NCBI GenBank assembly: GCA_035650735.1
Contig: DASRGZ010000094.1
Location: forward strand, 1 to 58,466
From: Chthonomonadaceae bacterium
GTDB lineage: Bacteria; Armatimonadota; Chthonomonadetes; Chthonomonadales; Chthonomonadaceae
DNA length: 58,466 bases
Reading direction: 5' to 3'
Shown one piece after another: positions 8,426 to 22,612 of this stretch. Within the stretch, counting starts at the first letter, position 1, and every line of letters begins with the position of its first letter. A program made the translations under genes and the position numbers. A model generated the notes under the pieces. That model saw nothing but the letters and a program-made list of their open reading frames with translations, had not been told where the DNA came from and did no database searches.

Positions 8426-9517
8426 CTACCGTATTTTACCACGCCCCGCAATGGGCCAGGTTGCCTCCACCTGCTCGCCGCGATAGGCCGTGATGGTGTC
8501 ATGCATATTGACGCAGGTGCAGGCGTGGTTGGGAATGATCTGGACCTTGTCGCCCACCCGTAGGTTCGTCGGGCCGTTGGCTTGCAGGTGCCCGTGCTCT
8601 TCACTGGCGCCCACAAAGGTAAGCTCAGGATGCCCTACGATCTCGCCGTAGGTGCGGTCGGGAAACGGGCAATCGCTGGCCAGCGACTTGTTGCCCGCGT
8701 CCACGACGATCCGGCCGTCGGGGCGCACGCTGGTCACCGTCGCCAGCACCGTCAGCGCGCAGCGCTCCGCCGGGACGCCGAGCTTTATCTGCATACGGTC
8801 GTTGAAGACGTAGACGCCGGAACGGATCTCGGTGATGCCCTCCTCCTTTGCCATCATCGCTGCGCCCGGCGTCGAACCGACGCTGATCTCGGGCACGGGC
8901 GTTCCCTGCGCGGCCAGCGCCGCCGCCAGCTCGCGCAGCGTAGCCGCCGTCTGCGCGGCCGCTTTCCGCCGTCCGGCCTCGTCCTCGGCGCGGTAGATAT
9001 GCCCCTCATAGGTAAACAGGCCAGCTAATTCCAGGCCCGGATGGTCGCTCACCCAGCGCGCCAGCAGCAGCAATTCCTCCGGGGAGCGCGCTCCGGCCCG
9101 TCCCAGGCCCGTATCCGCCTCGATGTAGACCGGCGCGCGCAAGCCCTGCGCCCGCGCCGCCTCGCCAATCGGCCCGGCAACCTCCACGCTGTCTACCCCG
9201 ACGGTGATCCGCACGCGCCGCAGCAGGTCCATCAGGCGCGCCACCTTCTGCGGCCCCACGATCTGGTTGGCGAGCAGCAGGTTATCAAAGCCCGCGTCGG
9301 CCAGCACCTCGGCCTCGCCCAGCTTGGCGACCGTCAGCCCGCTCGCCCCCGCTTCCATCTGCATCCGCGCGATCTGAGGGGTCTTGTGGGTCTTGGTGTG
9401 GGGGCGCAGGCGCTTGCCTCCCGCCGCGACGATCTGAGCCATGGCGCTAATGTTGCGCTCCAGCGTATCCAGGTCCACCAACAGGGTGGGCGTGTCCAGG
9501 TCATAGACGGTCTGCAT
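8426..9517 (-). CDS. DSD1/D-threonine aldolase-family PLP-dependent enzyme (fold type III)
   Basis: LDTP.LLVD, RPHTKTHK, YEGH, GSTP, SEEHG, PNHAC motifs. Confidence 0.93.
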   Translation of the reverse strand: MQTVYDLDTPTLLVDLDTLERNISAMAQIVAAGGKRLRPHTKTHKTPQIARMQMEAGASGLTVAKLGEAEVLADAGFDNLLLANQIVGPQKVARLMDLLRRVRITVGVDSVEVAGPIGEAARAQGLRAPVYIEADTGLGRAGARSPEELLLLARWVSDHPGLELAGLFTYEGHIYRAEDEAGRRKAAAQTAATLRELAAALAAQGTPVPEISVGSTPGAAMMAKEEGITEIRSGVYVFNDRMQIKLGVPAERCALTVLATVTSVRPDGRIVVDAGNKSLASDCPFPDRTYGEIVGHPELTFVGASEEHGHLQANGPTNLRVGDKVQIIPNHACTCVNMHDTITAYRGEQVEATWPIAGRGKIR

Positions 9518-15542: not shown

Positions 15543-16637
15543 ATGGGTGTCCCGCCGGCGGATAACGGGCGCGCTCCCCTCCAGACAGATCAGGCGCTGC
15601 TCTGGGCGGCCCGGCGGCTGGAGGCGGCAGGCGTGGAAAGCCCCCGCTTTGAGGCCCAACTGCTGTTGGCGATGGCGCTGGGCGTCACTCGCAGCGCCGT
15701 CCTTGCCGGCCTGCATCCCCGGCTGACGCCGCCGCAGGCGCAGGAGCTGGAACGACTGGTTCGGGAGCGGGAGCGGCGCGTGCCGCTGGCCTACCTGCGC
15801 GGAACGCAGGAGTTCTACGGCCTGACCTTCCTCGTCAGCCCGGCCGTGCTGATTCCGCGCCCGGAAACTGAGCTGCTGGTCGAGTTCGCCCTGGAAAAGC
15901 TGGCCTCCTGCTCAAGGAAAGTCGGGGCGTCCTCCCGTTCTGGCCCTCACCCCCTGCCCCCGTCTCCCACGCTGCGGGAGAGGGGAAACGGAGAAGCCGG
16001 GTCCCTCCCTTCCCTCGTAGGGTCGCAAGGCGGAGGGGCGAACCGTTGTAGCCCCGACCCTGGCAGTGGGGGACGGGGGTTAGGTCAAACACGAAGGAAG
16101 GAAGCCGGGGGGTTAGGTCCAACGTTGGCCGATGTCGGCACCGGGAGCGGGTGCATCGCCATTGCGACACTGGCCCATTGCCTCCCGGCCCGCGCCGTCG
16201 CCTTCGATATCTCGGCGGACGCGCTGGCCCTGGCCCGGCAAAATGCGGCGCTCCATAACGTGGCCGACCGGCTGCGGTTCGCGCGGGCCAACTTGCTGAC
16301 GGGCGCAGCCTCGGAGCGTTTCGACTTCGTCGTCTCCAACCCGCCCTATATTCCGACCGCCGAAGTCGCCGCGCTGCAGCCGGAGGTGCGCGCGTATGAG
16401 CCGCATATCGCCCTGGACGGCGGCCCGGACGGCATGCAGTTTCAGCGAGGGCTGGCGCAGGGTGCTCTGCGCGCCCTGAAACCGGGCGGTTGGCTGGCCG
16501 TGGAGGTAGCGCTGGGACAGGCGGAAGCCGTCGCAAGCCTCCTCCGCAGCGCAGGGTTTTTAGAGGTTTCCGCCCGGCGCGACCTGGCGGGCATTGAGCG
16601 CCTCGTCTGCGGTCAGAAGCCGCCTAGCGGGGAGTAG
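15543..16637 (+). CDS. prmC: Release factor glutamine methyltransferase with ~70-aa repeat-derived in-frame insertion
   Basis: PLAYLRG, VLIPRPETE, DVGTGSGCIA, SNPPY, ALDGG.DG motifs; insertion at about 15905-16120. Confidence 0.96.
   Translation: MGVPPADNGRAPLQTDQALLWAARRLEAAGVESPRFEAQLLLAMALGVTRSAVLAGLHPRLTPPQAQELERLVRERERRVPLAYLRGTQEFYGLTFLVSPAVLIPRPETELLVEFALEKLASCSRKVGASSRSGPHPLPPSPTLRERGNGEAGSLPSLVGSQGGGANRCSPDPGSGGRGLGQTRRKEAGGLGPTLADVGTGSGCIAIATLAHCLPARAVAFDISADALALARQNAALHNVADRLRFARANLLTGAASERFDFVVSNPPYIPTAEVAALQPEVRAYEPHIALDGGPDGMQFQRGLAQGALRALKPGGWLAVEVALGQAEAVASLLRSAGFLEVSARRDLAGIERLVCGQKPPSGE
15944..16120. repeat. Family B REP-like element plus one micro-element (16023-16067) inside prmC
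   Basis: CCCTCACCCCCTGCCCCCGTCTCCC..GGGAGAGGGG..GAAGCCGGG; same family as the intergenic copies at 30650-30840 and 36095-36210. Confidence 0.85.
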
Positions 16638-19989: not shown

Positions 19990-20132
19990 TACGCCGGCCT
20001 GCCTCTCCCGCGCCCATTTGCCCCCACGCGCGCTTCCGTTACGAAAACCTCAATCCACGCTGCCTTGCGTCCAGCGCGATCTTACCGCCAGCCCAAGCCT
20101 CCCACCGCTATTTTAGGAAAAAGTAATACACG

Positions 20133-20194
20133 TTTAAGAATTTCTTAAAGAATTGCCCAAATCGCTTGACAATTTCCAAATACGGACGTAAACT
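20133..20194 (+). promoter_or_regulatory. Promoter with upstream palindromic operator
   Basis: TTTAAGAA-T-TTCTTAAA (20133-20149); TTGACA(20166)-N17-TAAACT(20189). Confidence 0.65.
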
Positions 20195-20218
20195 AGAGGA
20201 AACCGGAGGGAGAAGAGG

Positions 20219-20725
20219 ATGGCGAAACTATTGACGCGCTGCCCGGTCTGCGAGAGCGCCCTGGGGATCTCCGAGCTGAAATGCACTCGCTGTCAGACAC
20301 GCATTCAGGGCGCCTTCGATCCCTGCCGCTTCTGCCGCCTCGCGCCGGAGCATCTGGCGTTCGTGGAGACCTTCCTGCGCTGTGAGGGCAATCTGAGCCG
20401 TGTGGAGAAAGAGCTGGGCATCTCCTACCCGACCGTCCGCAACAAGCTGACGGCGGCATTGGCCGCGCTCGGCTTTACGACGTCGGGCGTCAACGGTGGG
20501 GTGGAAGCGCCGCCTGTCCCGCCTGTGCCCGGCAGAGAGCCTGGCTCCCCGGTCGCTCCCCAGGCCCCGCCCACGTTCCCTGTCGGCCCGGCAGCGCCCG
20601 TCCAACCCGCGCCCCCTGTTGCCGGCCCCGAAGCCGAGGCGCGCCGTCGCGAGGTGCTCGATGCCCTGGCGCGCGGCGACCTCAGCGCCGAGGAGGCCGC
20701 CAGCGCCCTGCGCGAGCTTACATAA
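20219..20725 (+). CDS. DUF2089-family Zn-ribbon/HTH protein with C-terminal SHOCT-like helix
   Basis: CPVC..CTRC, GNLSRVEKELGISYPTVRNKL, RREVLDAL.RG.LSAEEA. Confidence 0.9.
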   Translation: MAKLLTRCPVCESALGISELKCTRCQTRIQGAFDPCRFCRLAPEHLAFVETFLRCEGNLSRVEKELGISYPTVRNKLTAALAALGFTTSGVNGGVEAPPVPPVPGREPGSPVAPQAPPTFPVGPAAPVQPAPPVAGPEAEARRREVLDALARGDLSAEEAASALRELT

Positions 20726-20729
20726 TTCG

Positions 20730-20960
20730 ACCTAACCCCCCGGCCCCCTTCCCTAATTCGCCGCTAACGCGGCAGGGAAGGGGGGGACCCAGCTTCTGCT
20801 CTCCTCTCTCCTTAAGGAAGAGAGAGGTCGGCTTCTGCTCTCCCTTCTGCCTTGTAGGGAGAAGGGCCGGGGATGGGGGGAGATAAGGCAGAACGGAAGA
20901 GCCTGGGAGGAAGAGAGTCGCCCCTCTCCTTGCGAAGGAGAGGGGAAGGGGTGAGGTTAA
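20730..20960. repeat. Family B REP-like palindromic cluster
   Basis: CCTAACCCCC..CCCCTTCCCT..AGGGAAGGGG...CCCTCTCCTTGCGAAGGAGAGGGGAAGGGGTGAGG. Confidence 0.8.
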
Positions 20961-20979
20961 GAAGGGCCTGCTCCCAAAC

Positions 20980-21111
20980 AAAAAAAGCCGCCCCGTTCGC
21001 GGCGGGACGGCAATAGCAAGAGGGAGCGCCCTTCGCGATGTCGGCGCGAAGGGCGTTTGAACAGCGTGCGCGAAGCAAGCTTCGCGCTAGGGCTCGTGAA
21101 CGCCTGTTCAA
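20980..21111 (-). ncRNA. Putative ~130-nt structured small RNA
   Basis: Promoter TTTACA(21145-21140)-N17-TACAAT(21122-21117); three hairpins; ends in a GC stem plus U7 terminator; no minus-strand ORF to account for it. Confidence 0.65.
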
Positions 21112-21205
21112 GCTATATTGTAGCGTACCGCTTCTGTTTTGTAAAGTATCTCGGGGAAAATTTACTTTAGGGGCCCCGATTCACGCAGGAAAAGGATATC
21201 CGGCC

Positions 21206-22612
21206 ATGGATGAGAACGTGATGCGCGTCCTGCAGATGCTTCAGGACGGCAAAATTAGCGCCCAGGAAGCCGAAATGCTCATCGCCGCCCTGCGCGGCGA
21301 ATCCGCCGCCTCCCGCAGCGCAGAGGAGAAGAAAGAGGACAGAGAGGAGAAGTCCTTCTCCTTCACGTTTGAAAAAATTAAGCCGCCCAAGCTGGACCTG
21401 GACGACCTCGGCGAGCGCATCTCCAAGGCCGTCGCCAAAGTCCAGCCGGAAAAGATCGTCAAGCGGGTGCAAGCGCAACTGCGCACCGCCACGCGCGCTG
21501 GCGCTCATTGGGGCGCATCCGTGAGCGCACGCGTGCGCACCTGGACCGAGGGCGAGGGCAAGCGCCCGGAAAACACGACCGGCCTGCCCGAACACACCGA
21601 TACCCACGACCTAGAGTTCCACCTTGAAAACGGCGCGTCCGTCTTTGTGGAGAACCCGCTGGGCGACGTCAAAATCGCCGGCACATCGGAAGGGCCTGCG
21701 GTCGTCTCCGTGCGCAAGGTCGTCTGGGGCCCGCGCGAGGAAGAGCTGAAGTCCCTGGCCGAGAAGATGGCTGTTAATATTCACGGCACCGATACGCGCC
21801 TGGATGTTAAGGTGGAAGCCCCCGATTTCTTTGACAGCGGCACCGTGGACCTGGAGTTGCGCGTACCCCGCACCTGCAACGTGCGCGTCAGCACCGAGTT
21901 CGGCGCGGTGGACCTATCGCAGCTAGACGGGCGCGCGGAGGCGGCCACCGCCAGCGGCGACCTGCGCCTGCAGGACCTGGGCGGCGACGCGCGCGCAGAG
22001 ACGGCGGCGGGCGACCTCTACCTGGAGCGCATCGGCGGCGCGGCCACCGTCGCCACCCAGAGCGGCGACATCAAGGCGACCGACATCCGGCGCGGCCTCT
22101 CCGCCAACGCCGCCAGCGGCGACGTACAGGCCAGCGACATCGAGGGCGGGCGCGTCGAATGCAAATCCGTCTCCGGCGATGTCAAGGTAGAGCGCGTCGG
22201 CAGGCTCGCCCCACTGGACATCACCGTCGAATCGGTCAGCGGCGACGCCCTGCTCGACGACGCCAGCGGCAACATCGCCATCAAAGCCGTCTCCGGCGAC
22301 GCCCTTGCCAACAATCTCGCGGCCACGCGGCTCCAGGCGCAGACGGTCAGCGGCGACGTCCAGGCCAGCCTGCGCGAGCCTTTCTCCGGCACCATGCAGG
22401 TCAATACAGTCTCCGGTGATGTCTCCATCGCCCTGCCTGAAGGCAGCAACGTGCGCGTCTCCCTGAGTACGACCTCCGGCGACCTGCAATGCGAGCATAG
22501 CGCCCACGACGTCACCGCCACCGATACCCTCTGGACAGGCCAATTGGGAACCGGCGCGGGCACGCTCAACGTCCAGACCATCTCCGGCGACACCCATATT
22601 CGCCGCGCCTGA
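21206..22612 (+). CDS. SHOCT-like plus DUF4097 beta-strand-repeat protein (YvlB/LiaX-like)
   Basis: RVLQMLQDGKISAQEA; many (T/S)(V/A)SGD repeats; start ATG 21206. Confidence 0.9.
   Translation: MDENVMRVLQMLQDGKISAQEAEMLIAALRGESAASRSAEEKKEDREEKSFSFTFEKIKPPKLDLDDLGERISKAVAKVQPEKIVKRVQAQLRTATRAGAHWGASVSARVRTWTEGEGKRPENTTGLPEHTDTHDLEFHLENGASVFVENPLGDVKIAGTSEGPAVVSVRKVVWGPREEELKSLAEKMAVNIHGTDTRLDVKVEAPDFFDSGTVDLELRVPRTCNVRVSTEFGAVDLSQLDGRAEAATASGDLRLQDLGGDARAETAAGDLYLERIGGAATVATQSGDIKATDIRRGLSANAASGDVQASDIEGGRVECKSVSGDVKVERVGRLAPLDITVESVSGDALLDDASGNIAIKAVSGDALANNLAATRLQAQTVSGDVQASLREPFSGTMQVNTVSGDVSIALPEGSNVRVSLSTTSGDLQCEHSAHDVTATDTLWTGQLGTGAGTLNVQTISGDTHIRRA

What the first reader, a model, noticed from the sequence alone, without database searches (positions are those of the whole stretch)
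20980..21145. Unannotated three-hairpin small RNA antisense within the DUF2089-DUF4097 operon
Seen on the minus strand: promoter TTTACA-N17-TACAAT, whose expected start (~21111) coincides with the first base of stem 1. Stem 1 is UUGAACAG(G)CGU...ACGCUGUUCAA, enclosing GCGCGAAG-CUUG-CUUCGCGC. Then come a perfect 11-bp stem CGCCCUUCGCG/CGCGAAGGGCG, a single-stranded CUCCCUCUUGCUAUU linker and a GC stem plus U7 terminator. No minus-strand gene explains the promoter or terminator, and I do not recognise it as SRP, 6S, tmRNA or tRNA. Inference: a novel sRNA. The exposed CUCCCUC is anti-Shine-Dalgarno-like and complementary to GAGGGAG in the RBS region of the DUF2089 gene (~20206-20212), and the RNA is also cis-antisense to any read-through transcript.
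Basis: partly seen in the sequence, partly recalled or inferred. Interest (0 to 1): 0.72.

Follow-up and report, generated by a model that had tools for sequence, protein, structure and literature searches.

The report
Genus-specific start-site-masking small RNA
A likely 132-base small RNA gene, with its own promoter-like and terminator-like signals and kept in two related bacteria of a little-studied phylum, is predicted to display mirror images of a ribosome-binding site and a start codon, so it would turn down selected messages, possibly including the cell-division gene minE.

Summary
In detail: minus-strand sigma-70-type promoter, three stems, U7 terminator. It is single-copy and matches no Rfam family at curated cut-off. 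One homolog exists, in the only other genome of the genus: same place, both promoter hexamers identical, 82% identity against 62% at neutral sites, all 37 pairs kept. No homolog was found in 100 other relatives, and the same operon elsewhere has a short spacer without it. It is therefore a recent, genus-level insertion. The invariant unpaired parts are an anti-start-codon loop (CCGACAU) and an extended anti-Shine-Dalgarno linker. The two best linker matches are minE and greA. Both sit exactly in register with the loop, with a post-hoc chance of about 0.001-0.015 once the register is relaxed. Both genes are missing from the second assembly, so these targets are unconfirmed. No RNA data were listed. 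Verdict: a real, uncatalogued anti-SD sRNA of a known kind; interest 0.42.

The parts
21140..21145 (-). -35 hexamer TTTACA
   Evidence: identical in G001 while 6 of 17 spacer bases differ
21117..21122 (-). -10 hexamer TACAAT
   Evidence: identical in G001
20980..21111 (-). predicted sRNA, 132 nt (5' end inferred from promoter spacing, +/- 2 nt)
   Evidence: 109 of 133 columns identical to G001
21057..21111 (-). stem 1: 11-bp invariant base, 12-nt 5' bulge (21099-21088), variable inner hairpin; the first 15 nt can also form a small alternative hairpin
   Evidence: first 18 nt identical in both genomes
21027..21055 (-). stem 2, 11 bp, with two compensatory changes and one U-A/U-G change
21038..21044 (-). 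invariant loop CCGACAU, complementary to AUGUCGG (anti-start codon)
   Evidence: 7 of 7 identical; predicted unpaired
21012..21026 (-). single-stranded linker CUCCCUCUUGCUAUU, extended anti-Shine-Dalgarno seed
   Evidence: 15 of 16 columns identical, one insertion; opening cost 0.2-0.3 kcal/mol
20980..21011 (-). intrinsic terminator: 9-bp stem plus U7
   Evidence: present in G001
20166..20194 (+). convergent promoter of the host operon
   Evidence: also in G001
20219..20725 (+). host operon gene 1, DUF2089 (zinc ribbon + HTH)
   Evidence: Pfam PF22747, PF09862
20726..20975 (.). dispersed palindromic repeats, absent from the G001 spacer; not part of the RNA
21206..22612 (+). host operon gene 2, SHOCT-like + Toastrack (DUF4097)
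   Evidence: Pfam PF22746, PF13349

Best explanation
This is likely a stand-alone, trans-acting small RNA that would repress translation by pairing its open linker with the Shine-Dalgarno region, and its stem-2 loop with the start codon, of a few mRNAs, with minE and greA as the best predicted targets in this genome. Shown: promoter-like and terminator-like signals, the conserved fold, invariant loop and linker, single copy, genus-level insertion into an older operon, and an Hfq gene in the genome. Inferred: that it is transcribed, that Hfq binds its U tail, that the linker nucleates pairing and blocks 30S binding, and that the loop adds a second contact on AUG. The targets are predictions from one genome (about 0.35 that minE or greA is real). 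Lowering MinE while MinCD is still made would block division; this follows from recalled knowledge of the Min system and is untested here.
For: The homolog keeps both hexamers, while the spacer and upstream DNA diverge. All 74 of 74 cells pair, with 3 compensatory changes. Both one-sided changes are U-A/U-G, valid only on the minus strand. Loop 7/7, linker 15/16 and 5' end 18/18 are identical, against 62% (148 of 238) at fourfold sites, 1/8 in loop 1 and 3/7 in the terminator loop. Invariant single strands point to a partner encoded elsewhere. An Hfq gene is present. Linker pairing ranks minE 1st and greA 2nd of 4,990 start regions, and 7th and 6th after accessibility (gene names). Both lie at register 0 of the 17 registers tried: minE 11 + 6 bp, greA 12 + 3 bp. 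With the flanks of the CUCCCUC and CAU cores randomised, both scores were reached in 0 of 1500 trials at register 0, 2-8 of 1500 within +/-3 and 19-22 of 1500 within +/-8. A subthreshold Rfam alignment to suhB/MmgR falls on the same linker-terminator part (19.4 bits against cut-off 41).
Against: There are only two distinct sequences, so covariation is not significant (57 of 500 shuffles reach it). The register test was designed after seeing the hits. The linker alone is not significant once the register is freed (P 0.12-0.14), and a second permutation gave 78 of 2000. minE, minD and this greA were not found in G001 (89% complete), so no target could be checked for conservation. minE is patchy in the family (24 of 40 genomes), so G001 may truly lack it while keeping the RNA. 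None of G001's 8 best linker sites had an equally good site in its G000 counterpart; one sigma-factor-like gene shares an 8-nt core (label read by eye). G001 showed no start region in register 0. Exact register is not mechanistically needed if stem 2 stays closed. The invariance of stem 1 is unexplained.
Confidence: 0.62

Rival explanations
1. Cis-antisense regulator of the host envelope-stress-like operon: its convergent transcription, or its full duplex with the intercistronic mRNA, uncouples DUF4097 and the SHOCT gene from DUF2089.
For: It lies antisense within an operon whose spacer is short elsewhere (0-302 nt, median 60, in 25 measurable loci of 28). The operon promoter is conserved and no plus-strand terminator was found in the spacer, so overlap is likely.
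Against: Cis pairing is automatic and would not hold loop and linker invariant. The duplex would end about 90 nt before the DUF4097 start. The DUF2089 site is weak, and weaker still in G001. It may still be a side effect.
Confidence: 0.13
2. Decoy RNA: the invariant stem 1, bulge, loop and linker bind a protein or another RNA instead of repressing mRNAs.
For: The 11 base pairs of stem 1 and the first 18 nt never vary, and the bulge is 10 of 12 identical. The bulge has no strong predicted mRNA partner (best net -13.0). No conserved mRNA target was shown.
Against: The two invariant single strands are exactly anti-SD and anti-AUG, in the spacing of a real start region. No known decoy family matches, and the genome has a separate 6S RNA.
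Confidence: 0.12
3. The selected element is on the plus strand: a Shine-Dalgarno sequence with an AUG caged in hairpin 2 starts an upstream frame that tunes DUF4097 translation, and the minus-strand RNA is its antisense control.
For: The same invariant bases read SD + 11 nt + AUG on the operon mRNA. The AUG at 21038 is in frame with DUF4097 in both genomes.
Against: In G001 two stop codons interrupt the frame, and most changes are non-synonymous (read). G-U changes favour the minus strand, which also folds better (z -4.2/-4.3 against -2.9/-3.9). The UAGCAA extension exceeds what an SD needs.
Confidence: 0.08
4. Non-functional relic or chance cluster of hairpins in a repeat-rich spacer.
For: The genome has many dispersed palindromes, some right beside it, and the element is confined to two genomes.
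Against: It is single-copy, unrelated to the 29 frequent repeat words tested, and more conserved than neutral sites, with promoter, pairs and terminator all kept.
Confidence: 0.05

Closest known systems
SuhB/MmgR (Rfam RF00519, alpha-r8) and AbcR1/2 (alpha-r15) sRNAs of Alphaproteobacteria (PMC7143759, passages read)
   Same: Independent small transcript with stem-loops, an unpaired CU-rich anti-SD motif and a terminator; AbcR1/2 are 114-120 nt with three stem-loops and bind Hfq; best sRNA hit in the lenient Rfam scan.
   Different: 19.4 bits against cut-off 41; only the 3' part aligns; another phylum; one anti-SD in a linker plus a separate anti-AUG loop; a 55-nt 5' domain with no counterpart in the model.
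DinR (Klebsiella) and DicF (E. coli), division-blocking sRNAs (PMC10907235, passages read)
   Same: Lineage-restricted sRNAs that cover a ribosome-binding site with a stretch upstream of the terminator (DinR) and would act on division, as predicted here if minE is a target.
   Different: They repress ftsZ and are processed from longer mRNAs; this RNA has its own promoter, no LexA was found, and the predicted target is minE.
6S RNA (RF00013)
   Same: Stand-alone structured RNA with a closed 5' stem and an internal single strand.
   Different: Not a rod with a central bubble; no Rfam match; the genome has its own 6S elsewhere, 66.7 bits.

Membership tests
trans-acting anti-SD sRNA (class) | own promoter and intrinsic terminator with U tail | tested here: met
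   in both genomes (consensus matches, not function)
trans-acting anti-SD sRNA (class) | conserved, unpaired CU-rich seed | tested here: met
trans-acting anti-SD sRNA (class) | no conserved reading frame on its own strand | tested here: met
   no AUG and no SD in the RNA; the TTG frames of the two genomes part at the linker insertion
trans-acting anti-SD sRNA (class) | conserved trans targets | tested here: inconclusive
   top targets missing from the second assembly; no shared strong site among those checked
trans-acting anti-SD sRNA (class) | expressed, Hfq-bound, represses targets | not testable with these tools
   an hfq gene is present; binding and repression need experiments
SuhB/MmgR RF00519 | score at or above the gathering threshold of 41 bits | tested here: not met
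   19.4 bits, E 0.16
6S RNA RF00013 | covariance-model match and rod fold with central bubble | tested here: not met
tRNA/tmRNA | ARAGORN or Rfam call | tested here: not met
tracrRNA or solitary CRISPR repeat | likeness or complementarity to a repeat of the genome | tested here: not met
   no CRISPR-DR hit; none of 29 frequent repeat words aligns better than its shuffles; no multi-copy blastn match
type I antitoxin | overlapping or adjacent small hydrophobic toxin frame | tested here: not met
   the only overlapped plus-strand frame is arginine-rich and differs in outcome between the genomes
SOS-regulated sRNA | LexA in the genome and the same box at recA | tested here: not met
   PF01726 not found in the 97.6% complete genome; no box upstream of recA

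The most novel reading that the evidence does not exclude
The RNA is a two-pronged mirror of a translation start region: the hairpin holds an anti-AUG loop 11 nt from an extended anti-SD, matching the long SD-to-AUG spacing of minE and greA. By silencing only the last gene of minCDE it would release MinCD and act as an RNA-triggered division brake, a route not found in my literature searches. It would be a recently born regulator in Armatimonadota. The tandem sigma-54-type units in G086 share the loop-arm-anti-SD-terminator plan, which hints at a wider architectural class in the phylum.
Probability: 0.2. Interest if true: 0.68.

Novelty: new member of a known kind. Interest (0 to 1): 0.42.

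Why it matters
My searches found no paper on small RNAs of this phylum. This is a well-bounded candidate that arose, or arrived, within one genus and settled inside an old operon, so it is a clean case of sRNA birth. If minE is a true target, it would add a new point of RNA control over division: the division sRNAs I read about act on ftsZ or nusG. Without target evidence it is one more anti-SD sRNA known from two uncultured-type genome assemblies, which limits both surprise and testability.

Tried and rejected
Expression: no RNA holder was listed for 20100-21400; this is no evidence either way. More homologs: blastn in 60 relatives gave one full hit. Model R1 in 100 relatives and, with laxer filters, in 38 family genomes gave only G001. 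The borderline hits G044 (28.7 bits, broken stems) and G086 (27.6 bits, a different unit) were inspected and rejected. The model rests on two sequences, so distant homologs may be missed. Metagenome pattern scan: 2 of 18 loci matched the model, L115 and L122, identical to the two known copies. Genome scan: 1 of 8, L227, identical to the G001 copy. Viral scans: 0 of 35 and 0 of 44 loci. LexA box: the 5' palindrome resembles a Gram-positive SOS box (motif recalled), but no LexA was found and recA lacks it. Its intergenic enrichment comes largely from a repeat family. DUF2089 and DUF4097 as targets were rejected. G001:C302 looked like an in-register site but is not a gene start, and the model does not score it. 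A CRISPR-repeat origin was rejected. I tried to show that greA is absent from G001 because of an assembly gap, but the only neighbouring match was uninformative. Start regions of minE (24) and greA (29) in family members without the RNA pair more weakly (best -16.6 and -16.0 against -23.7 and -23.0). I do not count this, because the G000 sites were chosen for being best. Literature: no paper held 'Armatimonad'+'small RNA'+'Hfq', 'Chthonomonas'+'non-coding RNA' or 'sRNA'+'minE mRNA'. 'greA mRNA' gave only the GraL paper (listing). One search listed 10 papers, none on an sRNA repressing minE by title or abstract start; I did not open them. No supplements were read, and RIL-seq tables there could hold a minE pair.

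Full report
Observation. A sigma-70-type site (TTTACA, 17 nt, TACAAT) ends 5 nt before stem 1 at 21111, and a 9-bp GC stem with U7 closes the unit at 20980. The predicted fold has z -4.5, with 0 of 200 shuffles as stable. Rfam finds nothing at curated thresholds. In a lenient scan the best sRNA hit is suhB/MmgR at 19.4 bits against a cut-off of 41. The element is single-copy. The dispersed repeats of this spacer lie 3' of the terminator and are absent from the homologous locus. A genome-wide scan for strong promoters followed within 50-300 nt by a terminator, with no called gene between, gave 24 units including this one. Eight of the other 23 hold a known Rfam RNA: tRNAs, TPP, SAM and cobalamin riboswitches, and a CRISPR repeat. 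The pattern is therefore rich in real RNA genes.

Homolog and conservation. The one other genome of the genus, G001, has the element at the same place and in the same orientation. Both hexamers are identical while 6 of 17 spacer bases differ and upstream DNA does not align. The RNA is 82% identical (109 of 133 columns), against 62% at fourfold-degenerate sites of the neighbouring gene (148 of 238). All 37 pairs hold in both, with three compensatory changes and two U-A/U-G changes that are valid only on the minus strand. With two sequences this is not statistically significant (57 of 500 shuffles). Conservation is uneven. The first 18 nt (18/18), the stem-2 loop (7/7) and the linker (15/16) are kept, while loop 1 (1/8) and the terminator loop (3/7) drift.

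Distribution and origin. The host operon (DUF2089, SHOCT-like/Toastrack, SHOCT-like) is of a type proposed as a functional analogue of the PSP/Lia membrane-stress systems (bioRxiv 10.1101/2020.09.24.301986, passages). The DUF4097 gene was found in 53 of 61 genomes. I examined the 30 best loci. In the 28 from other genera the spacer was measurable in 25 (0-302 nt, median 60), and none held the element. A covariance model from the two copies found no credible homolog in 100 relatives or in 38 family genomes with laxer filters. Pattern scans of metagenomes, genomes and viruses returned only copies identical to the two known ones. One such record is titled as a Chthonomonadaceae bacterium, which places the lineage in Armatimonadota (phylum from my own knowledge). 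The simplest reading is insertion or birth in the ancestor of this genus. Distant homologs could be missed by a two-sequence model.

What the invariant strands are. Read backwards, linker, 3' arm and loop spell an extended Shine-Dalgarno sequence, an 11-nt spacer and AUGUCGG. The linker is open (opening cost 0.2-0.3 kcal/mol). The genome encodes Hfq and has a separate 6S RNA. In a cis-antisense pair both strands change together, so invariance of these single strands argues for partners encoded elsewhere (inference).

Targets. I called 5,067 genes with a simple script and scored 4,990 start regions. The same 7-mer is in 88 start regions, and the G001 site is weaker. The two best pairings are minE, the last gene of a minCDE operon (12 bp, -23.7 kcal/mol), and greA (13 + 2 bp, -23.0); they rank 7th and 6th after accessibility, behind five others at -17.6 to -19.6. 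In both, the distance from the paired site to AUG equals the distance from linker to loop in the RNA. In minE the loop pairs six bases, AUGUCG. With the non-core bases randomised, two such scores appeared in 0 of 1500 trials at exact register, 2-8 of 1500 within 3 nt and 19-22 of 1500 within 8 nt. The linker alone is unremarkable once the register is freed (P 0.12-0.14), and another permutation gave 78 of 2000. These tests were framed after seeing the hits. The decisive check failed for lack of data: minE, minD and this greA were not found in G001, and minE is present in only 24 of 40 family genomes. G001's own best sites were not matched in its G000 counterparts. So the class of mechanism is better supported than any one target.

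Mechanism. Shown: signals, fold conservation, invariant anti-SD and anti-AUG strands, presence of hfq. Inferred: constitutive or repressor-gated transcription from a sigma-70 promoter; Hfq loading on the U tail; nucleation by the linker on SD regions that carry the GCAAG extension; a second contact of the loop on AUG; loss of initiation. Silencing minE alone would leave MinCD unopposed and stall division (recalled Min biology). DinR and DicF reach a similar end through ftsZ (PMC10907235, passages). Rivals are cis-antisense control of the host operon (0.13), a protein or RNA decoy that would explain the frozen stem 1 (0.12), a plus-strand caged start codon in frame with DUF4097 but stopped twice in G001 (0.08), and a relic (0.05).

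Comparison with what is known. It works like the anti-SD sRNAs of Alphaproteobacteria, AbcR1/2, NfeR1 and MmgR (PMC7143759, passages; SuhB preprint 10.64898/2025.12.09.693200, abstract and outline). It fails membership of RF00519, 6S, tRNA/tmRNA, CRISPR-related RNAs, type I antitoxins and the SOS regulon. My searches found no paper describing it or any sRNA of this group; the library lacks most subscription papers and I read no supplements. Earlier notes of this scan hold no look-alike sequence. They do describe anti-SD/anti-AUG RNAs in other genomes, which are unchecked leads and not support.

Verdict. A real, uncatalogued, genus-restricted sRNA gene (about 0.9 that it is transcribed), most likely a trans-acting start-site blocker (0.62), with an attractive but unconfirmed minE/greA prediction. 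New member of a known kind; interest 0.42.

Noticed in passing
L106:1195-1295, 1395-1490, 1530-1620 (G086, another family of the phylum): Three tandem near-identical units, each with a TGGCAC-N5-(T/C)TGC site (sigma-54-like; motif recalled), a short hairpin with loop CAACAU (anti-AUG), an anti-SD CUCCUUCC and a terminator. No Rfam family at cut-off; suhB at about 23 bits. Same plan as the RNA studied but not homologous by sequence. One pattern search found a single candidate start region (L232).
   Followed up: partly
L139:1848-1870 (G000:C171, minD-minE junction): The minE spacer contains CGACAT directly before ATGTCG, so the start codon could be caged in a small cis hairpin, and the spacer repeats the sRNA loop sequence CCGACATC. 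A similar spacer occurs in genus g16, which lacks the RNA.
   Followed up: partly
window 20726-20975 and many intergenic sites: Family of dispersed purine/pyrimidine palindromic repeats (569 blastn hits on 151 of 224 contigs); similar repeats appear inside the reading frame at 15543-16637.
   Followed up: partly
G000 whole genome: No LexA DNA-binding domain was found in a 97.6% complete genome that has RecA.
   Followed up: partly
family f1 genomes: minE is patchy: 24 of 40 genomes, not found in several near-complete ones such as G012 and G022; two greA-like paralogs are usual.
   Followed up: no
L314-L336 (G000): 15 of 23 other promoter-plus-terminator units have no Rfam match, for example L316, L319, L321 and L333; they are further sRNA or leader candidates.
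   Followed up: no
L045 (G021), upstream of DUF4097: The 302-nt spacer holds what looks like a duplicated 5' fragment of the SHOCT-like start of DUF4097 (read by eye).
   Followed up: no
window 8858-8944, minus strand: ARAGORN calls an 87-nt tRNA-Ala(GGC) that Rfam does not report at its cut-off; probably a false call or a degenerate tRNA.
   Followed up: no
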